A stretch of 58,045 nucleotides of DNA, counting the filler, from Basidioascus undulatus (lineage: Eukaryota): the NCBI GenBank assembly GCA_000826855.1. It is 4 parts of 4 records of this genome, joined end to end, with 100 filler letters (N's around TTAATTAATTAA, not from the genome) between each part and the next. Parts side by side here need not be neighbours in the genome. Positions count along the whole stretch, not along the records: positions 1 to 14,447 come from JTLS01000727.1; 3 more parts are not named here. One strand, given 5' to 3'. Under the pieces are notes generated by a model that ran no database searches, had not been told where the DNA came from, and saw only the letters and a program-made list of their open reading frames with translations. The translations under genes and the position numbers were made by a program. Below are positions 1 through 56,645 of this stretch, piece by piece (the first letter of the stretch is position 1; each line of letters begins with the position of its first letter).

Positions 1-50
1 ACTGACCTCGTCATTACTAGTGACGCGCTCTACCACTGAGCTAAGGAGGA
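1..50 (-). tRNA. tRNA-Thr(AGU), intronless, 3' end cut off by the window edge
   Basis: Minus strand reads TCCTCCT-TA-GCTC-AGTGGTA-GAGC-G-CGTCA-CT-AGT-AA-TGACG-AGGTC-AGT...: D arm, perfect 5-bp anticodon stem, AGT anticodon and variable loop. The T arm runs off the window. Confidence 0.85.
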
Positions 51-441
51 AGATGGGCTTCTACTGAATAATGATTTTAATTGTGTCTTACGGGACTCTA
101 GAAGGCCAGAAAGGTTGTTCAGAATAGGCCGAGAGTCTATGGTAAGCTAGGAGAGACGTTCGGGAGAACATTGCCCAAGAAGCTGTGTGTTTCACCAGCC
201 CATGTAGCATCCTGTCGTTGCATTGGTCAAGTGCCAAGCTGAACCGCTCATAGGAAAGCCCTTCAGTGGGTTCCGACTCTGATTGTCTGACCACATGCTT
301 GGGTATCATGAGATATTAAGATGTCACATACAAAGAAGAAAACGAATGCCAAATCCTTCAGCATTCCAAAGAGCATATAGGACGTGTGGTTGGGCAAGCG
401 TTTTTTGCGCCACCTTCCGCCCTCGTCCCCAAAACAAGTGC

Positions 442-446
442 AAAAA
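442..446 (-). terminator. RNA polymerase III terminator (T5) closing the permuted tRNA-Thr unit
   Basis: TTTTT begins 3 nt after A37 of the 5' half on the minus strand. Confidence 0.65.
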
Positions 447-449
447 TAG

Positions 450-531
450 TACGAGTGGCGCGCTCTACCACTGAGCTAAAGAGGCGACCAATTGCTGCCT
501 CTTGGCTGGATTGAACAACCGACCTCACCAT
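450..531 (-). tRNA. Circularly permuted tRNA-Thr(CGU): 3' half (531-496), 10-nt spacer (495-486), then 5' half (485-450)
   Basis: 3' half: A-TGGTG-AGGTC-GGTTG-TTCAATC-CAGCC-AAGAGGC-A. 5' half: GCCTCTT-TA-GCTC-AGTGGTA-GAGC-G-CGCCA-CT-CGT-A. Rejoined, they give a complete cloverleaf with a perfect 7-bp acceptor stem. No alternative partner halves are visible nearby. Confidence 0.8.
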
Positions 532-1050
532 TGCGCACTATAACCACTTACTTAAGCAAGCGGTGAAAGCGATTTACAGCCTAAATCTTATCTTGCGGAA
601 ACAGTACATGTCCAGGTTCGTTTGCTTCTTTACCCAAAGACTCTGAAACGAGTCTAAAAGGATCATTGTGTGTGTCTGTAAGGAAAATGAGTACTTGAAT
701 GAGGTCAGCGGGACGTAATGGATCATGACAAGACTTACATCGGACAAATCGTTCGAGAAAGTGGATTATGAAGTCCCAGTGTCTTATGTAATGATACTCG
801 GCATCAGGAAACTTTCTTGAAGTTTCACAGAATGAAATTTACAATGGGTAGGTGAGAGTAAGCGAGGGTGAATGGATTATCGCTGCTGGGCGAGGTGGCG
901 AGGCCGAAAAGACGTGAGAAGATGTGCAAATTTCTGCTGTCCGCGGCTCCGCACCCTCAAAGCAAGCTGCCTTGATCACAAGCGATCTGCTCTAGAATTC
1001 TAAGCGATCTAGTTGCGTCTGCGGTCCATGCAAGTCCTGCACCCTTCCGT

Positions 1051-1781
1051 TCATGCTGTCGTCCCCTTGGGTGGCTCGCGAACGAGCACGACCGTCCTAA
1101 ACCGCCCGCCCTCTCCGATCCGGATTTCGCCCGCCTCCTCCCATCCAAAGCGCTTGTATATGGGAAGGCCCATCGGCGTAGCCTCAATGTAGGTCGGCAA
1201 GCCCTCCGCGTCCGCCTGGTCGAGGCCCCACCGCAAGATGCGCGAGCCTGCGCCGGTTCCTTGGTGCGCTGGGTCGGTCGCCAGGATCTGGAGGACTGCA
1301 AGATAGCTACATTCAACTTCATACGGCAAACGGAAAATTTGTATTGCGACTCACAGTAATGCCGCCTTCCCTTCATGATCCGCTCCTGCGACTCCTTCAG
1401 CCCCTTCTTGAACTCCTCCCACAGGGGAATGTTTGCCTCCTCCGGCCAAGGGACCGCAGGAGCGTCCGCCTTCTTCTCTTCCTCCTCTCCCTCGGGAGGC
1501 GGAACGATCCACTTCCCATACGCGACGATCTCGCCGGTGTCGTCGCGGACGGCCTTGACGATGCGCGCGCGGCGGTCGCTCGCCAGCGCTTCGCCGTGCC
1601 GCTCGGTGTGCCATGCGATCTGGACGGGCGTGGGGCCCAGCGGGAAGAGCGCGTTGAACTGCGGGTCAGATGAGAAGGCGTGTGCGTGGATGTGCGCGAT
1701 GCGGGGGATGTTCGCGGGGGTTGCGAGGGAGAGGGTGAGTTGAGGTCGGGCAGAGCTAGGGGCTGTTGAGGTCGAGGACAT
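1051..1781 (-). CDS. GNAT-family N-acetyltransferase (2 exons; intron 1296-1354)
   Basis: Spliced protein MSSTSTAP...GRRHYFLQILATDPAHQGTGAGSRILRWGLDQADAEGLPTYIEATPMGLPIYKRFGW contains the GNAT acetyl-CoA motif (Q-G-x-G-x-G) and the C-terminal YKRFGW motif. A GTGAGT...TTGCAG intron joins the two ORFs in frame. Confidence 0.9.
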
Positions 1782-2316
1782 GATGAGGGACAGTTGAAGC
1801 GCAGAGAGAGCCGGCTGTCGTTCTTTGCGGAAGACTTCAAGGAGTGAGGAGTACAGGCACAAGCCGAGAAGGTCTTCGCGTGTGGATGGCGAGCAACAAC
1901 ACTGAGTCACATCATTCGATCATCGCCGCCAGGACGCGCAGCCTTCCGCCGCTCAGGGCAAGCTCGTCGCTCAAACTCCAACTTGTTCAGCAAGGACATG
2001 CAGCGCTGTATCGCATAAAATGTGCATGCATAGAAAACACTTTTATAGAATTATGGACTATCACACTTGACAGTGCAGACCGTGTCCAGGAACAAGGTGC
2101 CCCATTTGATCCACCCCATCATTGGAGTCGTCCCATTGTGGTCCTACATAACCCTGTTAGAATTGACCATGCGACAGGCTATGCAAGACCTCTTTCAGAA
2201 CGGAGTACCAAAAACAATGTCGAGATGCTTTAGGATTACGATGCATTGCCTATTCGCCGACTGTTTAACATATGCTCTATGTCTATTGCTTAACCTACAG
2301 GAAGTATTGAAGGCAT

Positions 2317-4104
2317 TCAAGCGGCCTTCTCGCGCTTGACCAAAAGGTGCTCGGAGAAGTCGCCAACAGGAAGGGTAAACGGCATGTTGACGGCGGAGAA
2401 AAGCTGTGCTGCGAGGAGATCTGGAAGCACGACCCACATGTTAATGTGGGGTCGGGCGCTGAAAATGAAGGAAGTGCAGCTTACACCAACCGCCCCTGTG
2501 CAACGTAAGAGTCACAGGGTGAGCCCGACGAACCTTCAGGAATTTTAAAGAATACCTAAGCTAAGCAACTCACATGGAGCAGGCAAAGCCGATCGCACCG
2601 CCAGCCACAATCAGGTCGCTCGCGTCTTTGCCCTGGGCCAGGGCCTGAGAGAATGGCGGCGAGCAGTCAGTTTCAATCGCGAGTAAGTGTGAAATTAGGC
2701 ATTCTCACGTAATACGCGCCGGCGAGAACCCATGCCTCAATCGTGATCGTCAACATGATCCAGAAGAAGACTGCCCGAGGGGACGGCTGTTCAGCCTGTG
2801 GAGCGGCTGGCTGCAGGCTCTGTGGCACTTACCGAAGTTAGTTCGCAGCGTGCAGATTGTGTAAATAAAACACATAATTCCAAAGATCATAAGCTGTGAA
2901 AGGGACCCATTCAGCCGACGGGCACATGCGGTGAGGCAGGACGAATGAGACGCACGTAGTGACCGATGCCGACGTTGTATGCGACGGTCGTTGCGCCAGC
3001 GGCGGCATCACCGAGTGCGAAAGAAGCGGCAACCCCCAAAGTTGGGTTAATTAGTGAGGCGTAAAACTGGATTGTACAAGCTTCAGCATGGACGGTGCGG
3101 AGGGCGAGAGCATGATGCGAGAGCGTGATGCGACGCACAAGCCAGAACTACAGTGAGAGTCGAGTGGGTTATTCAGACTTCCAATCCTCATCTGGTATTG
3201 TCAACGGGTACTTACTCCGCCGAAAGTTCCAATGATTACGAAGGGAAGAGTGTTGCCTGCCGGGAGGGGAGAGCGACGCTGTTAGCGAGGGCTCGTAGAC
3301 TTGCGAAGTTTCCTTGTTGTGACTTACCGACGATGAACTCCATGATCGCCACGATGGTTTGGACTGAATTTGTGATCCGCTTTTATCAGACTCTGAGGAA
3401 CCTGTGGACGACGTTGTGGCGCTGTGGCTACTCACCCATGCCGCCGAAGAAGATGATAGTGCCGCTGTTTGCACAGGGTCAGTCAAGCTCAGAGGTTTGA
3501 AGTATCATAGGCCGCACATATCTGAGGAAACATTCGAGGTCAGATCTCATGTGGTGTCGGAACAAGGACGAATGAATGAAATCCTCACGAGTTGTAGCAG
3601 AGGCCGGCGTCGCGCCACGCCATCCCACTATGCTGACAGGTCAGATTCAAGCGGGACGCCAAGATTAAGGAAGTCCAACAGACTGAGGTCCATAGAAAGA
3701 ACAGTCAAGTTGGTGGCGAACGCCGCCATCCCCAGAGGGGTCGGGTTCGCGAGACTGCCGAAGCGGGTGTGAGCTTTCACAATTCCTTCCTCAGTGAAGA
3801 AGAACGAAACACCCACATCTTGTTCAGCCCTCCCTTGATGTAAGGGTCCCGGGGCTGGAGGTAAAGGCTCTGGAAACCAAGCGAAGATGAGTCTGCGTCC
3901 GCCTGCCGTTACGCTGGACGGTGAACGCCGCCGCTCACCTCAAACTGAGCTTGAGTGAGAGTGATCTGCGGCGCTGCTGGGTTCGTCGGCAAGGCTTCAA
4001 GACTCTGGGTGATCAGCGTGCAAAACCGTCAACGACGTCGTGGAATGCTCACCGTTGTTGATATGCGCCGTCTGGGCCTGCCCCTTCTCTGCGGCGTCGC
4101 TCAT
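2317..4104 (-). CDS. GPR1/FUN34/YaaH (Ato/Ady2-type) acetate transporter, many small exons
   Basis: Signature FGSLANPTPLGMAAFATNLTVLS, followed after splicing by [39 protein letters not shown] and a C-terminal FTLPVGDFS. The start ATG at 4104 is inferred. Confidence 0.85.
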
Positions 4105-14447: not shown

Positions 14448-14547
14448 NNNNNNNNNNNNNNNNNNNNNNNNNNNNNNNNNNNNNNNNNNNNTTAATTAAT
14501 TAANNNNNNNNNNNNNNNNNNNNNNNNNNNNNNNNNNNNNNNNNNNN
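14448..14547. other. Assembly gap linker
   Basis: N44-TTAATTAATTAA-N44, which puts stop codons in all frames; identical at all three gaps. Confidence 0.98.
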
Positions 14548-26804: not shown

Positions 26805-28076
26805 ACGACCTGCTACTTGCGCCCTTTTTCTCCTTCTCTTCCTTCCCTTTTTCTCCCTTAATCTTCCCTCTGATGACTGTAAGCTACGGAACACGTTCCG
26901 CTCGACCACCATGTTACCTCATCCCCCCATCCTTTCCGATTCTCAAGAACACCACACACACACGGACGTTGGATTGGGAGGTGGACCTGTAGTTTTGAGA
27001 CGCTTTGTTACGACGAGTTATGATACGAAACTGGCTGTGATTTATAATACTCGCTGGATGCTGGGCATCGTGCCGCGATCTAAGAAAGAAGGCTGAAACA
27101 ACTGGGGGAAAGAGCACAGGACGGAAGCTGACATTTCTGCTCTGTGTAAAATAGTTTCGAGGTACTTTGGCTGTAGTATATTTAGGTAAGCCTTCTAGGG
27201 TGCGCCATCCGTCCACGGTTTAAGTCGCACTGCGCGCCTCGCGAAGTCGCCCAGCTGATCACACGTACATTGTGCAAGTTTTGGGATTTACTTTTTTCAA
27301 TGGTTTCTGATAATGTAGAATTTCGATATAAGGATTGAATACATGTATTTAAAAGTACTGCAGCAGTTGCAGTTGCCCAACACCCACTGGGCGGTGCACT
27401 TCAAGTGCACTTACCTTACCCTAGACACGTGAATGCCCTGTAATCGAAGAAGATTGATCGCTGTATAGAAGCGGCTAATGACATGAATAAACAGTCGGCC
27501 TTCGAGGGAACCTGATGGTCAATCATTCAACACCAAGCCCAGCCTGCAGTCCAGAGCGTGCATGGTGCACCGCTGCCTGTCACAACCTCACCTCTGTGCC
27601 TTGCGCAAGATGGATCAAACCAGGCTGAAGGCAGGAGCATATGAGCGTTTACTTTTTGATATCTTACTCGTCAGGTACCCAGGCACCTCACCAGCAGTAC
27701 TCGTGCAACAGCCGAAGCAGCAGCCAGATCTTGACCAGGGGCAGCACCTCGTCAAGATCACCACCCTGCGTTTCTATATTGCTCCCACTAGATTGGTTCG
27801 AGCCTAAAGATACAGCCAATTAATTGTCTAAAACAGCTCAGTACACTATGGAACTACCTTACTAGCAGGCAGAACAATCTTCCCAAAGCAAGCCCAGCCT
27901 CCAGCCATTCTCGAGCACTGTTCCTTTACCAATCAGGTCTGGACATTTGAGGAATGTTGGAGGCGCAGTCTGGAATCAGGGTACAAAATTGGCATTTTGT
28001 AAGGGAACAGGAGTTCTAGAGCATGAGGTCAACAAGGAGCTGGCTGTCAAAGCGCTGGCTGTGATCGCTCGCGTTT

Positions 28077-28830
28077 ATGGCATCATCGACGGCCCCGGCT
28101 TGCCCATGTCGACTCCACGCCTCACCGCTCTCGGATGTCAATATCGGGCACGCCAGCTCCAGCGTGGCATGGATCGCCAGCACCTCCTCTGCGACTGTCC
28201 CCACCAAAGAGGGCTGGTATGTCGACTCTGGAGCATCACACATGATGTCAGGCGACTGTTCCCTCTTTGTCTCACTCCGCTCCATCCAGCCTGAGCCAAT
28301 CAGCCTTGCCGAGAAGGGCTCCGTCATTTACGCGACCACTGTCAGGAGCATCATCATCCCCGTCATTGCCGACTGTGGCCAGGCAAGCACCATCCTTCTC
28401 TGCAATGTCCTATACGGCCTGCACATTGGGATCAACCTCCTCTCCATCTTGCGCCTCAACTGCCTCGGCTTCCGGAGCGTCTTCTCTGATGACAGCGTCA
28501 CCTTCCATGCCAAGGATGGCCGCATCGTTGCTCGCGCCTGCCTCTAAGGCAGCCTCTTTCATAACGCCCAGCCAGCCAGTCCTATCGCTGTCATGGGTGT
28601 GCACACTGCCGCCTTCCTCGCCGCTCCACCAGCACGCATGCTCACCCTCTGGTTTGTCGCCTTGGACATCTGAACCCTCAGGCGCTTAAGCAGCTTGCCA
28701 GCAGTGGTCACATCCTTGGGCTGACATCCAGAAGGGGGAGGGGATGTGCATATGTGAGGATGCATAAACTTCCATATCCCATCTCGGCCTCACACGCATC
28801 GCATGTGCTTGGACTTGTTCACTCATATCG
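28077..28830 (+). mobile_element. Decayed Ty1/Copia LTR-retrotransposon pol fragment (protease, pre-integrase, start of integrase)
   Basis: WYVDSGASHMM aspartic protease motif and LCNVLY...INLLSILRL. Degenerate LW...GHLN and C..C..MHKLPY...VLGLVHS segments follow with stops/frameshifts. Confidence 0.85.
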
Positions 28831-28993: not shown

Positions 28994-29093
28994 NNNNNNN
29001 NNNNNNNNNNNNNNNNNNNNNNNNNNNNNNNNNNNNNTTAATTAATTAANNNNNNNNNNNNNNNNNNNNNNNNNNNNNNNNNNNNNNNNNNNN
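28994..29093. other. Assembly gap linker
   Basis: N44-TTAATTAATTAA-N44. Confidence 0.98.
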
Positions 29094-43526: not shown

Positions 43527-43626
43527 NNNNNNNNNNNNNNNNNNNNNNNNNNNNNNNNNNNNNNNNNNNNTTAATTAATTAANNNNNNNNNNNNNNNNNN
43601 NNNNNNNNNNNNNNNNNNNNNNNNNN
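43527..43626. other. Assembly gap linker (must hide several kb, including most of TRA1)
   Basis: N44-TTAATTAATTAA-N44. The TRA1 reading frame starts mid-protein right after it. Confidence 0.98.
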
Positions 43627-48952: not shown

Positions 48953-50358
48953 TCAACGTTGGTTGACATATGAGCTTAAGATGCCCCTGTGCGAAGAGGG
49001 CAGCAGAAAGGTCAGACGCACCGTAGAACTTCCGCCAGACACGCTCGATGCGCTCAAGGCTCCAAGGCAGAAAGAAAAGCGGTTCGTAATCCTCGTGTAA
49101 TTTAACAAGAGCCGAGCGGGTCGAGGAAGGCAGCTATTGCCCCGGAAGGTACGGGAGAGCCTCGCAGCCGAGGTCCTCATCACTGGTCCCACCACCAGAA
49201 CGAAGCGTCGTGCCGTGCACTTCGTGCTCGGGCGAAAGGTAAGAGGGCTGGTTGAAAATTCAGCTCCGCAGCTTGGTCGCGTTTGAGCTTGAGGCGAATG
49301 TCGTCGTGTGAACGGTGAAGTGCTATGATTGATACAAGCGTGCACGAGAGTGCCGGCCACGAAGATGGCAACGGCTAAAGCGAAGGCCGCCGAAAGTGCT
49401 GAGGACGCCGTGACAGGGATCGACGGGGGTGTGAGGAGCAACGCCCGAGAGAACAAGTTGTCGAGTAGACCGACTATGACGGGAACGATGAGAAGTGCAG
49501 GTAGGGCTGCGATGAAGCGCGAAAGATGAGTCTTCGCTTCTCCCCACCGCCGATGAACGTCGATGAGCTTCTTCATAGCACCAAACTATCGGTATGAGAG
49601 AGCGTCGCCAAGAATGCCCGTCCCGCGACCGCGAGAGCCGGGATAGAGATCTGCGAGATGAGATGCCGGTCATCGCCACTGTGTCAACCGGAGTGCATCT
49701 TCCTTAGAATAAAGAGATGGTTGCCGACGCTGGTTACAAGCTCCAAGGACCAATAAACATTGAGGCGAGCGTCCACCGCTTCCGGCTCGAAGTCCTCTGG
49801 GGACGCCAGGTCCAGGCTAGTCCCGCTAACGCCGCTGATCTTGACGATGATTTCGGTGAGGTTAGACAAAAGCTCGTTCGTCCTCGCAGCTTCGTCGGGC
49901 TTGATCCCGTTGACCACATCGACAAAGAAGGAGGTGATGATGATCGCGCAGAAGAGACCGATCTTGATCCCGGAAGAACTCTGGTACGTCAGCGGTGGAG
50001 TCTCCACAGCGGCATGTAAATTTATGTACGCACGAAGACCAGAAGGACGTCCAAGCTGCCGCGCCACTTGTCCCTCTACTTCTCGATCTCGGCTGTGGTG
50101 GACTTGTAGAGTGGACTCCATGCGCTCGCGCTGCTGTCCGGTACCTCCGGGATAGGCTGTTGGGAAGAGTCTAACAAAAGATTCCGGACGTGAGTTTACA
50201 TGCTGCTCGGTCGGCTCAGACAAACTACTGAACGCACCCGAAGCAGCCTGACGCTCGTTTATGGCCCGAATGTGGACGAGAAGCTCTGCCTGCTGAGTGA
50301 AGAGCTTGTCCAACGATACGACACTATTACTCGTGTCAGTTGAACAAGGATCAGGCAT
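48953..50358 (-). pseudogene. DUF6535-like basidiomycete membrane protein, frameshifted
   Basis: IGLFCAIIITSFFVDVVNGIKPD...FEPEAVDARLNVYWSLELVTS followed by further hydrophobic helices (FIAALPALLIVPVIVGLL). Segments fall in different frames without clean introns. Confidence 0.55.
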
Positions 50359-52038
50359 CAGCGCATACCCGGCGCCGAAAATAGCTCAATCGAGCAAGCA
50401 GGACTCACATCGATGGAACAGTGTCCTTGTCCTGTGGCCTTTACTACGTCCATCGCAGCGGTATCGCCGGGAAGGGCCCTATGGACGACTGGGCATCAGA
50501 GATATACAAAGGTCAACTGTGCGGAGTACTCACTTGGCCTGAGTCGTGCTGGCTGCTGGCCCGAAGTGAACGTGTCGCCATCGGCGTTTCCCGCCGCATC
50601 CCTGCGGTTCAAGTGTCTGTTAGCCGTGTAGCCGGATTTCAGAAAAGTGATGAGGCATACGCAGGAGCAGAGCTTCCACTCATGATGCTAGATTTGTAGC
50701 GGAAGAACTGGGGTGGGGAGGTGGTGAGTTGAGCAATGGTGATGGCGCCAGCAACAATCGTATCGTCGTTCGGGTGTACGCCCAGAGAACAAGTGAGTGT
50801 CAAACTAGAGGAAAGAATTTAAATTTGTCTACCTCTTAGGATATTCAAGAGATTGGTGCCACAGGAGGGAAGAAACATTGCGGAAAGGCCTTGAGCAGGT
50901 ATGCTTTGCATGGAGACGACCTGAATGGACTAACTCGGCTGATGCTGCGGCGGCAACCTGAAAGCCCGAAAGTGCTGGTGGATTGAAAAAGATTAATCCT
51001 AGAACATTATTACACTGTCGAGGATCTTAATCTGCGTGGGGGGAAGGAGCGAGCATCCTCAGACTCGAAGGTGAGTGCATCTCGACAGCCCCGTCTCTGC
51101 AGGGATTCGGGATGAACGATCGAGGACAATATGAGGGAAACTTCCAAGTTTGGTTTGAACATTAGGTCACTGGAAACTACGCATCGAAAAAACTCAGCAG
51201 AACTCCATGCGGCAGTGTCGAAGTTCCTTAGAGTAGTAGTGCGGCTGCGCAACGACTATTGACTCTAACACGAGCCGTGGAAGGAACATACGAGGTAGTT
51301 CCCATAAAGGAAGAAGCGGGTCCGCCATAGCCTATTTCCAAAACACATAAGCGCAGAACCATTAAGAGAAGTTCAGCAAAGCGGGCCACAAACCTTCCAG
51401 GCCTTCGAAACCTGCATCAAAGCGAGGACTGGTTGCACCGCATGAGGATACGAGCAATCGTCCAAAGCCATATCGAAGATTCAGGTCCGGACTTCCACGG
51501 GGTGTTTTCCTGTAGATAATATGTCCCTGTCGGTTATGCTTGACGGAGTGCAGAGTCAACTGAAAGCGGCCCAGCTGGAGGGTAACCCCTCTGTTGGCGT
51601 AAGTTCTTGTAGTACCCGCAACGGGGAGGTTCGGGGTAACGGTTACAAATCCAGTACTCGCGCCGGCTCCTCGGGACGGTTCGAAAGGTAACGGCTAGAC
51701 AGCGCTAACAAGAGCAGGTGATTACGACTGTGTGCTTGGAAGAACTAGGCAGAGTATGCCAGGAGAAAGTGAAATGAGAACTTGACCATAAATCAGGATA
51801 TTCACTTGCAAGCGTGGGCTGTTGTCGGTAGTAGTTCCACGTTGTTTGCCAGTTTGGATCGTTCGCTCCTACTCGCTGAGTTCATCCCACCCTTCCACTC
51901 GCCATATCACGGATCGCCACTCCCAACCACTCCCGACCTGTTTCCTTTAATCGCTCACCACATTGCAGCCTGCAGTTCGCACACAAAACCTAATACTCCC
52001 CTGTTGACCTCCCGGCGGGCCTGTACACCCTTGATGGG

Positions 52039-53528: not shown

Positions 53529-55691
53529 AGTAAGGAGGGGCTGACGTCGACCGGGGCTCACGTCGACTCCGATCCCTATCCCTCCTGCGCCACGCGTACT
53601 TGCTTTCGTCTACCCGGCCCATCACACTTCGTTCCTCCGTCCTCTCGCTCGTTGGCCTCCTACCACCCTTCTCCCCGCCGTCTCTCCTCGCATTCGGCTC
53701 CCTCGTCTCTCACCCTGATCGTCATCCTTGTCCTCGACCCGCGCATCTCTCGTCGGTTTGACACCCAGCCGCCCTCGCACCCCGCCATTTCCATCGCCAT
53801 GCCCCTGCCCTTCTCTCTCGTTGCCATTCCCCTTTCTTCTCGACACACTTTTGCAGTTGGTTCCGGATTCACGCCCTCGCCCCCAATCCGCCTCCGCCAT
53901 TCACGCCCTCCCCCACTCCGCCGTGCATCCCCTCTACTTCCTTAATCAGGTTCATAGTGTCTCGCAATATCCTGCATACACAACGCGTCCCGGTAGCTTC
54001 ACGATCACGCCTCGTCACGTCCACGTCATGTTGGCTTGTGTTTTGTTTTGTTTTGCTTTCCATCCCGGTCCTTTGTTGTCGTCGAGATGGCCAATCTTAT
54101 TTGTCTGCCCGTCTCTGCGTCGAAAGGAGAGCAATGTTGTTGCATGCTGCCTGGGCGCCTGGGTTTGCGGGCTGGGACGACCCGCTGTAATGCCTCTCGG
54201 TCACCTTTGCGCGGCAGCAAGGGGATATTTCCCTTTAGAGGAAATAACGAGAATTGGGGAGTGTTTGGAAAAATTGCGGAAGCGACGAGCGTCAGTAGTG
54301 AGTATCGGAGAGGACGGTTGAGTGAGCCTGTGTGGGGGAGAACGTATCAGTTGATGGGACAGGCGCACCGGCCAGTCCACCTGCCACACACAATATTAGA
54401 TCATGAAAATCTTGACTAAATGTCTAAAATATTCAATTATAGGTCTAAACGATGGACTGTGCTTGGGTGTAATGGGGAGGCGTTTCGCTTTGGCAGGATC
54501 GGGATGCGAGCAAGGTTGGCACTTGTAGGCAGGGCCGCGCCTTGTATAGGCCAGAGAAGGGAAGGATAGTATTCCATGGAAGTCCCGGCATGAGCTCCGC
54601 AGTCCATGCTTGTGACGCTTCAGATCGATTTATGTGCCAAAGGAGAAGGAGGGTCAAGAGTAGCAAGGGAAGCTGGGCGAGGATGGCCTTATAAGCATGT
54701 GCAGAGGCCAGAAGTGTTTTTTGCATACCGTTACGAGTTTGAGTTACCAAAACGGACCATAACGGCTACCAGCCAGCGGATCTCAAATGAGAACGCAGCC
54801 GAAGGCCGCTCCGAGAATGCTGAGGATAGTCCACGACGTCTAACAGCGAACCCTCCTGACACAGTCATATAGCCTTCAATGCGATGGAAGTTTTTCTTTA
54901 AAGAAAGAAGTACCTTGGGAAGGAGAAGCAATCGAGTAAAAGAACGACTTGAAAAACAGCGTGGGTTGCTGCAAGCGAGGAAGGGCGGGCATGGTCGGCG
55001 AGGTGGAGGAAGAACAGCCATGACCACACCGGGCTTGGAGCTGTCCCTAGTCGTGTCACGGTGAGGATCAACTGAACCAGAGACAGGACGGTGGCGGCCT
55101 ACGGCCATATATTTCGCTACCCGAAACTTCGGTTTTCGATGGCAAATGCGGAAAAGGAGAAGTTCAAGGGGCCCTCGTTTCTGCCCTGCTGTACGGTCCC
55201 AAGGTGCGGCCGAGCTGGAGTACAGTTCGGTTTACCCGCAGCGGACAGCTTACCTTCCAGAGCAGACCGCCTTTTCCTTCTCCATTCTGAGTTGGAAAAA
55301 GCGCTCGTGTGCTTAGGCATCGCCCTGATGACCGTGATCGTTGGGTTGTACACAGCCAACTGGAGCGCTGTTGTGAGCATGTCAACGCTAGCCGCCTCGC
55401 AGCCTTACCAGATCGGGGCAGTCTCTACCCTTCGTGAGTCCTGCGCACCCCGTGTTTTCAGAAGAAAGCTCCGAACATGTCAAGATGAACCGCAGACCAT
55501 GCCGACAGCCTGGAATGCTTCAGCAGGGGCGGTCGTGCAAGACTCTTTCCACTGCACGGTAGCCTTGGGGGGTAGGGCAGGACCTATTTTGGATCTAAAC
55601 AAGTCGTTTCACCGTACTTCTCTTTTCTTCTTCTACAGATCTAACACCAGGCTCAAAATAATAGATATTAAGTGCTACTTGTAGGGTTAAT

Positions 55692-55773
55692 AGTTGCGTG
55701 TTCTAATGGTTATGATTTCTCTTTCACACGTTGAAGCCAGAGAAGGTTCCCGGTTCGATCCCGGGCGCGACTA
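55692..55773 (+). tRNA. tRNA-Val(CAC) with a 9-nt intron (55729-55737)
   Basis: AGTTGCG/CGCGACT acceptor stem, TCTCT/AGAGA anticodon stem, loop TT-CAC-A[cgttgaagc]C, T arm CCCGG-TTCGATC-CCGGG, and a downstream TTTTT terminator. Confidence 0.9.
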
Positions 55774-56645
55774 GTTTTTATTATTAGATCAGTCTAGCAT
55801 TGTACGAGGACATCTGTAGTCCATCTTGATCTACATCCTGTTAAGCCGCAGCGAAAAGGACTTGCGGAAAGCAGAGCCCGAGGGCAGTCCGGCCGAAATC
55901 GAGCGCACTCCGAACGGCGCGCGCGTCGAGGCTCTCCTTCAGTTCTCCCTTCAACCGCGACGTCCATCTGATCTGGCTGCGCCGACTCGCTTCTACAAAC
56001 GTCTGTTTGTGCCCTCTGCATTGGAAAACTTGTAAGTCCGTTGATTGTATAGCTTGGTGGCTTCTGACGAACGTAGCTTCTCCCAATCCTTCCGCGGGTC
56101 CCCAGACCGCGCCTGATCTCCCGGTCGCGCAGAGCACCCACTGCCCGTCTAGTGGTCCAAGTACGCCCATTTTCTCTCTCAGGCTCGTAGCACTGCCAAA
56201 GTGTCCGCCAATTCGTGCGGTCAGGCTCGCGAAGTCACTGACGAGTGAGGTGCCCCTCAGGCTCAGCACTTGGTCGTCACCTGCGTGCGACTCGTTCAGC
56301 GCCGCACACTTGCCAGCGACCTCCATCATCCTCGACATTCGCACAAAGTACGCTTGTGTGTCCAAGGCATGTGAGTCCACTTTCTGGTCCTGCTGCCCCC
56401 GCGTCGATCTGCTTTGTCGCCGGGTCGAGTGCCGCTGGCGAGTTCGGCGCGCAAAGTCTCGCCCAAGCTCTGCTCCGCGTCATCATCCTACATTCTCCAC
56501 GTGGCCGACGTTGCTGACACCGCTCTACCCACTCGTAGTCTTCACCCTCACTCCTCTGTGTCGTCAAGCTTTAGGTCGTCTCGCCGACGCGTCCGGCGTT
56601 AAAGCGTCCCACGCTTTTTTACGCACCCAGAGTTCCGCAGACGCC

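What the first reader, a model, noticed from the sequence alone, without database searches (positions are those of the whole stretch)
442..541. Candidate circularly permuted tRNA-Thr(CGU) gene in a fungal genome
Seen: on the - strand the order is leader ...ATAGTGCGCA | 3' half (positions 38-73, 531-496) | 10-nt spacer GCAATTGGTC | 5' half (positions 1-37, 485-450) | CTA-TTTTT. The halves complement each other exactly: 7/7 Watson-Crick acceptor stem, anticodon and T stems each with one G:U, intact D arm. The break is precisely at 37/38, the canonical tRNA intron site. Anticodon-loop/trailer CGTACTAT can form 8 bp with leader ATAGTGCG. In an alternative register, G at -3 from the 3' half pairs with C32, like the anticodon-intron pair used by the splicing endonuclease. 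Established: permuted tRNA genes matured via a circular intermediate (splicing endonuclease plus ligase, then RNase P/tRNase Z) are known from Cyanidioschyzon merolae, prasinophyte algae, the Bigelowiella nucleomorph and Thermofilum pendens. I know of none in fungi, and standard tRNA scanners would miss this arrangement. Inference: this is a functional permuted gene rather than debris.
Basis: partly seen in the sequence, partly recalled or inferred. Interest (0 to 1): 0.95.

Follow-up and report, generated by a model that had tools for sequence, protein, structure and literature searches.

The report
Back-to-front threonine tRNA gene in fungus
A fungal chromosome carries a threonine tRNA gene written with its back half before its front half, a layout so far reported only from a few algae and archaea; it looks like a working gene, but nobody has yet shown that the tRNA is made.

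Summary
On the - strand, 531-496 (tRNA positions 38-73), a 10-nt spacer, 485-450 (positions 1-37) and CTA+T5 follow each other. Joined in tRNA order, ARAGORN calls a 72-nt tRNA-Thr(CGU). The predicted transcript folds unaided into the permuted cloverleaf plus an 8-bp leader/trailer helix.

New here:
- The window is fungal.
- Contigs of two public DNA runs hold this arrangement. They also hold further contigs with the same 3'half-spacer-5'half order but other spacers, and other loci where the 5' half is followed by a T-run.
- The leader looks like a decayed outer 5' half that keeps an A-box core. This fits origin by tandem duplication.

Not settled:
- Expression: no RNA run is listed.
- Whether conventional Thr(CGU) genes coexist: no genome is held.
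- Conservation in relatives: two metagenome scans found only algal permuted Thr genes.
- Processing: a strict bulge-helix-bulge register is 12.9 kcal/mol worse than the best fold.

Four literature searches and two reviews (2014, 2026) list no fungal case. Verdict: probably (about 0.55) a functional type II (37/38) circularly permuted tRNA gene, the first in fungi. The main rival is an inert duplication remnant.

The parts
575..595 (-). AT-rich stretch about 15-35 nt upstream of the vestigial tRNA start; candidate TATA-like upstream promoter element (inferred)
   Evidence: AT fraction is 0.67. About 2% of 21-nt windows reach 0.67. The two conventional tRNA genes of the window have 0.81 at the same relative place.
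533..556 (-). Leader that aligns to positions 5-29 of the 5' half. It is the probable vestige of the outer 5' half of an ancestral tandem pair. It keeps an A-box-like core (TAAGTAAGTGG, 554-544).
   Evidence: Local alignment gives 19 identities in 25 columns with 2 gaps. The score is reached by 6 of 2000 shuffles and by 18 of 2998 other 60-nt windows.
534..541 (-). Leader segment ATAGTGCG, which pairs with anticodon-loop and trailer bases 453-446
   Evidence: It forms an 8-bp helix in the best fold and in the centroid fold.
496..531 (-). 3' half of tRNA-Thr(CGU), positions 38-73: anticodon-stem 3' strand, variable loop, T arm with B-box core, acceptor 3' strand, discriminator A
486..495 (-). 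10-nt intervening spacer that closes the acceptor stem. RNase P and tRNase Z would remove it (inferred).
   Evidence: Published intervening sequences are 7-74 bp (Table 1 passage of PMC3978253).
450..485 (-). 5' half, positions 1-37: acceptor 5' strand, D arm with A box, anticodon-stem 5' strand, C32 U33 CGU A37
   Evidence: It is 91% identical over 35 nt to the conventional Thr(AGT) gene 435 nt downstream.
442..449 (-). Trailer CTA followed by T5 (446-442), a Pol III terminator-like run
   Evidence: The window's tRNA-Val gene ends with T5 one base after its discriminator. T5 or longer runs occur about 0.5 times per kb per strand.

Best explanation
This is a circularly permuted nuclear tRNA-Thr(CGU) gene of type II (junction 37/38) in a fungus, one member of a small family of such loci.

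Proposed pathway, all steps inferred:
1. RNA polymerase III starts upstream of the leader. It uses the B box in the 3' half, the A-box-like core kept in the vestigial leader and an AT-rich upstream element. It stops at the T5 three bases behind A37.
2. The transcript folds into a cloverleaf whose acceptor stem is closed by the 10-nt spacer. Its two free ends are held together by a leader/trailer helix stacked on the anticodon stem.
3. The tRNA splicing endonuclease measures from the tRNA body and cuts after A37 and before A38.
4. The fungal tRNA ligase joins A37 to A38, giving a circle.
5. RNase P and tRNase Z excise the spacer, and CCA is added.

The gene arose from a tandem pair of Thr(CGU) genes by decay of the outer halves.
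For: SHOWN
- The order, the exact 37/38 break, intact stems and conserved bases are all present, and ARAGORN calls the re-joined halves tRNA-Thr(cgt).
- The unconstrained best fold of 101-116 nt is the permuted cloverleaf plus an 8-bp leader/trailer helix. It has z = -2.65, and 1 of 200 shuffles folds as well.
- T5 starts 3 nt after A37. T5 is also the terminator of the window's tRNA-Val gene. T5 or longer runs occur only about 0.5 times per kb per strand.
- Contigs of two DNA runs carry leader, 3' half, spacer and 5' half in one 10.8-kb contig with no differences (records 5 and 14).
- Other contigs carry the same 3'half-spacer-5'half order with other spacers (records 7 and 15). Record 15 is identical to this locus in the D, anticodon, variable and T regions. 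It differs only in the spacer and the acceptor stem.
- By my hand reading of the listed changes in record 15, pairs 4:69 and 6:67 change T:A to C:G on both sides.
- At other loci the 5' half is followed after 0-7 nt by T5 (two loose ends), or by CTATTTT (one loose end) (table 7).
- The leader aligns to 5' half positions 5-29 with about a quarter of its columns changed, while the inner 72 nt show no defect. This points to selection on the inner halves.
- Two of the leader's four substitutions (U540, U537) create pairs of the leader/trailer helix. This is my own reading.
- The spacer length lies within the published range of 7-74 bp.

INFERRED
- Every processing step and the promoter.
Against: - There is no expression evidence of any kind.
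- The AT-rich element at -35..-15 of the 3' half is only 0.57 AT, against 0.81 at both conventional tRNA genes of the window.
- The A box lies downstream of the B box. Ordinary TFIIIC-directed initiation at the true A box would give only a 5'-half transcript.
- In the best fold the 5' cut site lies inside a continuous helix.
- The canonical bulge-helix-bulge register (C32:G534, then a U-C mismatch, C34:G536, G35:U537) is 12.9 kcal/mol less stable.
- Contig depths suggest roughly 8-9 copies of the 5' half in the genome. Conventional Thr(CGU) genes may therefore exist and make this locus dispensable.
- The paralogue in record 15 has a C-A mismatch at pair 5:68 (hand reading).
- No contig spans the whole locus. 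The join between 5' half and trailer runs through a repeated stretch.
- No relative with the arrangement was found.
- The leader vestige is only moderately significant, at about 0.003-0.006.
Confidence: 0.55

Rival explanations
1. It is an inert remnant. A tandem pair (or several) of Thr(CGU) genes, probably with introns, lost their outer halves by deletion. The inner halves still look perfect because the events are recent or because gene conversion from conventional paralogues keeps them uniform. No tRNA is made from these loci.
For: - The leader looks like a decaying 5' half, so duplication debris is demonstrably present.
- About 8-9 copies of the 5' half and about 7 copies sharing the last leader bases plus the start of the 3' half exist. 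Conventional copies could therefore supply the tRNA.
- The upstream AT-rich element is weak.
- The junction structure is non-canonical.
- There is no RNA evidence.
Against: - Random decay would not leave both inner halves intact to the base with breaks exactly at 37|38, while the outer half has lost about a quarter of its positions plus its anticodon loop.
- Several loci with unrelated downstream sequence all have a T-run within 12 nt of A37.
- Spacers differ between copies while the halves stay constant, with compensated acceptor pairs.
- No vestige of an outer 3' half was found: 459 of 500 shuffles score as well as the best downstream alignment.
- No contig with the conventional 37-38 join was reported (table 5). 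This is weak evidence, because contigs around repeats are short.
Confidence: 0.27
2. The locus is transcribed but does not yield a decoding tRNA. One option is a short 5'-half RNA, started by the true A box near the spacer and ended at T5. The other is a stable tRNA-like RNA whose long leader/trailer/anticodon stem is never cut, with an architecture like bacterial YrlA.
For: - The true A box sits about 10 nt behind the spacer and the T5 lies 18 nt behind its end.
- Rfam's YrlA model (RF02553) aligns end to end over 432-550 on the - strand with 28.2 bits, E = 2.8e-4. That model describes a T arm, a closed acceptor hairpin and a D arm inside a long stem.
- The 5' cut site is base-paired in the best fold.
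Against: - 28.2 bits is far below YrlA's gathering score of 69, and YrlA is a bacterial and phage family.
- The two ends reconstitute a textbook Thr anticodon loop (C32 U33 CGU A37 A38). A mimic does not need that.
- A 5'-half-only product would not explain conservation of the 3' half or the compensated acceptor pairs.
Confidence: 0.1
3. It is an assembly artefact. The 5' half is a multi-copy repeat, and the assembler joined '3' half, spacer, 5' half' of one locus to '5' half, trailer' of another.
For: - No Logan contig spans the whole locus.
- The two single-copy contigs overlap by only 21-23 nt, inside the repeated 5' half (records 1/5 and 9/14).
- Both runs may be the source of the assembly.
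Against: - Even if mis-joined, one contig shows a 3' half with no 5' half before it for 10 kb, followed by a spacer and a 5' half.
- Another contig shows a 5' half running into CTA+T5. Both orphans would still need explaining.
- Other contigs repeat the permuted order (records 7, 15).
- The repeat is only about 32 nt, shorter than ordinary reads.
Confidence: 0.03

Closest known systems
Type II (junction 37/38) circularly permuted tRNA genes of Cyanidioschyzon merolae, including Thr(CGT) and Thr(AGT) (Soma et al. 2007; Table 1 passage of PMC3978253 seen)
   Same: - The 3' half precedes the 5' half.
- A short intervening sequence closes the acceptor stem: 10 nt here, 7-74 bp published.
- The junction lies at 37/38 and a T-run follows the 5' half.
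- Leader and trailer are complementary.
- The isoacceptor is even the same, Thr(CGU).
- My metagenome pattern recovered the C. merolae-type Thr(AGT) gene with its 24-nt spacer (L002, L009, L022). The same search logic therefore finds a published case.
   Different: - The host is a fungus, not an alga.
- The leader/trailer structure is a continuous 8-bp helix rather than a clear bulge-helix-bulge.
- The leader still shows a vestigial outer 5' half with an A-box core.
- The gene appears to be multi-copy.
- The tRNA body is native: it is 91% identical over 35 nt to the neighbouring fungal Thr(AGT) gene. Origin was therefore independent.
- Expression through a circular intermediate is proven in C. 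merolae and untested here.
Permuted tRNA genes of prasinophyte green algae and the Bigelowiella nucleomorph (Maruyama et al. 2010; as cited in PMC3978253 and PMC13578239, passages seen)
   Same: - They are mostly type II, with short spacers.
- They are thought to derive from tandem repeats of intron-containing genes. An extra 5' half beside a permuted gene is described for O. lucimarinus, which parallels the vestige here.
   Different: The lineage and the isoacceptors differ (Leu, Ser, Cys and others).
Dimeric, co-transcribed tRNA genes of yeasts with spacers of about 7-10 nt (recalled from memory, from no call)
   Same: [quoted passage not shown] This is the likely precursor state.
   Different: In those genes both tRNAs are complete. 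Here the outer halves are gone or decayed.
YrlA, Y RNA-like A, Rfam RF02553
   Same: Both have a T arm, a closed acceptor hairpin and a D arm inside a long stem. The sub-threshold hit is 28.2 bits.
   Different: The score is far below the gathering score of 69. YrlA is a bacterial and phage family and has no anticodon-loop halves. This locus keeps exact anticodon-loop halves.

Membership tests
Circularly permuted tRNA gene, type II (37/38) | The 3' half lies upstream of the 5' half on one strand, separated by a short intervening sequence. | tested here: met
   531-496, a 10-nt spacer, 485-450.
Circularly permuted tRNA gene, type II (37/38) | The halves joined in tRNA order give a complete cloverleaf with the conserved bases and a normal 7-nt anticodon loop. 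| tested here: met
   ARAGORN calls tRNA-Thr(cgt), 72 nt, on the re-joined halves. U8, A14, G18 G19, U33, G53 T54 T55 C56 A58 C61 were read directly.
Circularly permuted tRNA gene, type II (37/38) | Leader and trailer form a bulge-helix-bulge or intron-like structure that presents both cut sites to the splicing endonuclease. | tested here: inconclusive
   An 8-bp leader/trailer helix is present in the best fold. It puts the 5' site inside a helix. The canonical register with the C32:G(-3) pair has one mismatch and is 12.9 kcal/mol worse.
Circularly permuted tRNA gene, type II (37/38) | A T-run terminator lies directly behind the 5' half. | tested here: met
   T5 at 446-442, 3 nt after A37. tRNA-Val uses the same signal. 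Other loci also show T5 behind A37.
Circularly permuted tRNA gene, type II (37/38) | An upstream promoter is able to start transcription before the 3' half. | tested here: inconclusive
   AT is 0.57 at -35..-15 of the 3' half, against 0.81 at two conventional genes. An A-box-like core lies at 554-544 and a 0.67-AT stretch at 575-595.
Circularly permuted tRNA gene, type II (37/38) | A circular intermediate and a mature CCA-bearing tRNA are detected. | not testable with these tools
   No RNA run is listed for this DNA.
Circularly permuted tRNA gene, type II (37/38) | The permuted arrangement is kept in relatives, or it is the only gene for the isoacceptor. | tested here: inconclusive
   No genome is held. 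Further permuted copies exist in the same genome. No contig with a conventional 37-38 join was reported, which is weak evidence. The metagenome scans found only algal cases.
YrlA (RF02553) | The score reaches Rfam's gathering threshold. | tested here: not met
   28.2 bits against 69.
Conventional tRNA gene (RF00005) | A collinear match to the tRNA model at the gathering score. | tested here: not met
   17.3 bits against 29. ARAGORN is silent on the native sequence.

The most novel reading that the evidence does not exclude
All Thr(CGU) genes of this fungus, roughly eight to nine copies, are permuted descendants of one ancestral rearrangement. They share the leader end and the start of the trailer because these form the processing helix. 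The organism would then have no conventional gene for this tRNA. It would depend on a cut, circularise and re-open pathway run by the ordinary fungal splicing endonuclease, Trl1-type ligase, RNase P and tRNase Z. That pathway has never been seen in opisthokonts.
Probability: 0.2. Interest if true: 0.85.

Novelty: new member of a known kind. Interest (0 to 1): 0.66.

Why it matters
Among eukaryotes, permuted tRNA genes are on record only from a few unicellular algae and a nucleomorph. I saw this in passages of a 2014 and an August 2026 review.

A working fungal example would show three things:
- The ordinary eukaryotic splicing machinery of a non-algal lineage can mature back-to-front precursors through a circle.
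- Standard tRNA scanners leave real genes unannotated in fungal genomes. Both scanners missed this one.
- The 'tandem duplication, then loss of the outer halves' model would be caught in the act, with one outer half still visible.

It would also raise a cell-biological question about how a circular precursor travels between the sites of splicing and of end-processing. That point rests on my recall of yeast biology and is mentioned in PMC3978253.

Tried and rejected
- Whole genome: none is held. A genome-wide count of conventional and permuted Thr(CGU) genes was therefore impossible.
- RNA evidence: no RNA holder is listed.
- Run X3: nothing was laid.
- First metagenome pattern (Thr-CGT specific): 0 loci.
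- Second, looser metagenome pattern: 34 loci.
  - By eye, 29 of the 34 are a bacterial-looking arrangement: a complete tRNA ending in CCA, then a 5' fragment of the same tRNA and a T-run. They are not permuted at 37/38.
  - 3 of the 34 are the C. merolae-type Thr(AGT) gene.
  - 1 of the 34 (L004) is green-algal.
  - 1 of the 34 (L003) was not analysed.
  - None is fungal.
- Search for remnants of the outer halves by blastn-short over the window: only the neighbouring Thr(AGT) gene appears.
- Trailer against 3' half: 1456 of 2000 shuffles score as well. The 400 nt downstream against the 3' half: 459 of 500 shuffles score as well. No vestige was found there.
- Other permuted tRNA candidates in the window: none is clean.
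- ORFs over the locus: only chance frames of 59 codons or fewer.
- Bacterial-type promoter and terminator scan: not informative for a eukaryote.
- Earlier findings of this scan: nothing for this genome, for this sequence or for fungi.
'Fungus, probably basidiomycete' rests on named TRA1 hits at 53-62% identity and on Pfam families including DUF6535.
- Literature search was badly framed and gave only general fungal papers.
- Copy numbers read from contig depths are rough. The records are contigs, 22 records were not shown, and a filter drops some.

Full report
**1. The observation**

- a leader ending ..ATAGTGCGCA at 532
- a 36-nt 3' half at 531-496 (A38 to discriminator A73)
- the 10-nt spacer GCAATTGGTC at 495-486
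- a 36-nt 5' half at 485-450 (G1 to A37, position 17 absent)
- CTA and T5, the T-run at 446-442

The acceptor stem is 7/7 Watson-Crick. The anticodon and T stems each have one G:U, and the D stem is perfect. ARAGORN and Rfam at gathering score see nothing here. Rfam's tRNA model reaches only 17.3 bits, against 29 needed. When the two halves are joined in tRNA order inside a script, ARAGORN calls a 72-nt tRNA-Thr(cgt). A degenerate pattern for this architecture hits the window once, at this locus, and hits 0 of 100 shuffles. My own scan of both strands found no other clean candidate.

**2. The host and the surroundings**

The window encodes eukaryotic genes: LTV1, ERO1, an ammonium transporter, a metallophosphatase, the FAT region of TRA1, a PROPPIN, DUF6535 and a retroelement Pol fragment. 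The TRA1 piece finds named fungal proteins (Tulasnella, Dentipellis, Lentinula, Sugiyamaella, Tuber) at 53-62% identity, and an unnamed best hit at 77%. The host is therefore a fungus from a sparsely sampled lineage, probably a basidiomycete.

The 5' part of a conventional, intron-less Thr(AGT) gene runs off the window at 50-1 on the same strand, 435 nt downstream. It is 91% identical over 35 nt to the permuted 5' half. The permuted gene's body is therefore native, not foreign. A tRNA-Val(CAC) gene with an intron lies at 55691-55774. The N runs lie far away. Only chance ORFs of 59 codons or fewer cross the locus.

**3. Folding**

Without any constraint, transcripts of 97-116 nt fold into the T arm, the acceptor stem closed by the spacer, the D arm and the anticodon stem. 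An 8-bp helix between leader 541-534 and bases 453-446 (C34 G35 U36 A37 plus CUAU of the trailer) stacks on the anticodon stem. U33 pairs with A532 and C533 is bulged. The energy is -35.2 kcal/mol and z is -2.65. One of 200 shuffles folds as well, and the centroid shows the same structure.

The textbook register for a 37/38 junction would be a central 4-bp helix of positions 32-35 with leader bases -3 to -6, flanked by two 3-nt bulges. It contains a U33-C535 mismatch and scores -22.3 kcal/mol, which is 12.9 worse. The two ends are clearly brought together, but the 5' cut site sits inside a helix. Eukaryotic endonucleases place their cuts by measuring from the tRNA body (PMC3978253, passages seen). 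The body is intact here, so cleavage is plausible but not assured.

**4. Signals**

- The T5 run begins 3 nt behind A37. The window's tRNA-Val gene also ends in T5, one base behind its discriminator. T5 or longer runs occur about 0.5 times per kb per strand.
- Both conventional tRNA genes have 81% AT at -35..-15. Fewer than 1% of 21-nt windows reach that. The same interval before the 3' half has only 57%. This counts against a simple 'TATA at -30' promoter for the 3' half.

**5. A vestige in the leader (new)**

Leader 556-533 aligns to positions 5-29 of the 5' half, with 19 identities in 25 columns and two gaps. The score is reached by 6 of 2000 shuffles and by 18 of 2998 other 60-nt windows. 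The alignment lies in the expected place and order. Leader plus 3' half reads like a conventional Thr gene that has lost its anticodon loop and whose D stem has decayed.

The vestige keeps the AGTGG core of the A box (554-544), 37 nt start-to-start from the B box. A 67%-AT stretch lies 15-35 nt before the vestigial start. I infer that the permuted gene still uses the promoter of the ancestral upstream copy. Two of the four substitutions in the vestige (U540, U537) create pairs of the leader/trailer helix; this is my own reading. I found no vestige of an outer 3' half downstream. The significance of the vestige is moderate, so it is a probable feature, not a certain one.

**6. Other copies in the same genome**

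Two DNA runs hold 98% of the sampled words of window 1-3000. Both may be the source of the assembly, so they are not independent support. No RNA run is listed.

Laying their contigs on 300-700 shows the following:
- One 10.8-kb single-copy contig per run carries leader, 3' half, spacer and 5' half down to 452/450 with no differences. A 447-nt contig carries 472-300. The two overlap by 21-23 nt inside the repeated 5' half. No contig spans everything.
- Other contigs have the same 3'half-spacer-5'half order with different spacers. Record 15 is 88 nt, covers 450-532, has 7 substitutions and 4 indels, and has depth 45.6 against 17 for single copy. Record 7 is 60 nt. In record 15 all differences lie in the spacer and the acceptor stem.
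- Read by hand, pairs 4:69 and 6:67 in record 15 change from T:A to C:G on both sides, and pair 5:68 becomes a C-A mismatch.
- Four other contigs leave the 5' half into unrelated sequence. On the - strand, one continues after A37 with T, C and T5. One continues with seven bases and then T5. One shares CTATTTT and then diverges. One shares about 20 nt of trailer.
- No contig with a conventional 37-38 join was reported. This is weak evidence, because contigs around repeats are 31-40 nt, 22 records were not shown and a filter drops some.

Depths suggest roughly 8-9 copies of the 5' half and about 7 copies sharing the last leader bases plus the start of the 3' half. These are rough figures. I cannot tell whether the copies not accounted for are conventional intron-containing genes or further permuted ones.

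**7. Relatives and literature**

- A Thr(CGT)-specific permuted pattern found nothing in JGI metagenomes.
- A looser pattern found 34 loci:
  - Three carry a permuted Thr(AGT) with a 24-nt spacer. This is the arrangement tabulated for C. merolae (PMC3978253, Table 1 passage). They serve as a positive control.
  - One (L004) carries a permuted Thr(TGT) on a green-algal contig. Its DGAT2 ORF is closest to Micractinium and Chlorella at about 50% identity.
  - 29 are a bacterial-looking arrangement that is not relevant here, and one was not analysed.
  - None is fungal. The pattern demands particular acceptor and D-loop letters, so its reach is limited.
- Full-text searches for 'permuted tRNA' gave 16 papers with 'fungi', 14 with 'fungal' and 46 since 2015. 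By title and abstract, none reports a fungal case.
- Passages of the 2014 review and of an August 2026 review (PMC13578239) list only unicellular algae, a nucleomorph and archaea.
- The tRNAscan-SE 2.0 paper mentions permuted tRNAs only for archaea.

**8. Weighing**

For a working gene:
- the breaks fall exactly at 37|38 on both sides
- there is no defect in 72 nt, beside a decayed outer half
- a terminator sits in the right place here and at sister loci
- the ends are held together by a helix partly built by substitutions
- several copies have free-running spacers and compensated acceptor pairs

Against a working gene:
- there is no RNA evidence
- the promoter is uncertain
- the junction is non-canonical
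- conventional copies may make it redundant
- there is no cross-species conservation
- the assembly joins through a short repeat

My estimates:
- a functional permuted gene: 0.55
- inert duplication remnants: 0.27
- a transcribed product that is not a decoding tRNA, either a 5'-half RNA or an uncut tRNA-like RNA: 0.10. The sub-threshold YrlA hit of 28.2 bits against 69 is an architectural look-alike only.
- an assembly artefact: 0.03

**9. Novelty**

If the gene is functional, it is a new member of a known kind: a type II permuted tRNA gene in a kingdom where none is on record. It also offers an unusually clear view of its origin. The boldest reading not excluded is that every Thr(CGU) gene of this fungus is permuted.

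Noticed in passing
window 1-50 (- strand): This is the 5' part of a conventional, intron-less tRNA-Thr(AGT) gene cut by the window end. Rfam gives 29.1 bits for model positions 1-49. By that alignment it starts with T rather than G. An 81%-AT stretch lies at -35..-15.
   Followed up: partly
window 55691-55774 (+ strand): This is a tRNA-Val(CAC) gene with a short intron in the anticodon loop. It has an AT-rich stretch (81%) at -35..-15 and a T5 terminator one base after the discriminator. I used it as the local model of a conventional tRNA gene.
   Followed up: partly
L004:992-1093 (contig Ga0114919_10010661): This is a permuted tRNA-Thr(TGT) broken at 37/38 with a 30-nt spacer and a T5, on a green-algal contig. 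The neighbouring DGAT2 ORF is closest to Micractinium, Chlorella and Ettlia at about 50% identity. It may extend permuted tRNAs to another chlorophyte lineage.
   Followed up: partly
L002:3001-3092, L009, L022: These hot-spring-type metagenome contigs carry a permuted tRNA-Thr(AGT) with a 24-nt spacer. This matches the arrangement tabulated for Cyanidioschyzon merolae. The neighbouring long ORFs have no introns.
   Followed up: partly
L001, L005-L008, L010-L021, L023-L034 (29 of 34 loci): These loci share a recurrent bacterial-looking arrangement. A complete tRNA ending in CCA is followed after about 3 nt by a 5' fragment (acceptor strand plus D arm) of the same tRNA, and then by a T-run. I read it by eye only. 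It may be an integration-site duplication or a regulatory decoy.
   Followed up: no
window 14448-14547, 28994-29093, 43527-43626: Three pairs of 44-N runs lie at a regular spacing of 14,546 bases. They look like masking or scaffolding marks rather than biology.
   Followed up: no
window 432-550 (- strand): Rfam's YrlA model (Y RNA-like) aligns end to end with 28.2 bits, E = 2.8e-4, well under its gathering score of 69. The model in effect detects permuted tRNA-like architectures.
   Followed up: yes
window 28065-28544 and 49687-50385: There is a retroelement Pol beta-barrel fragment (PF22936) and a DUF6535 ORF. From recall, the latter is a family typical of mushroom-forming fungi.
   Followed up: no
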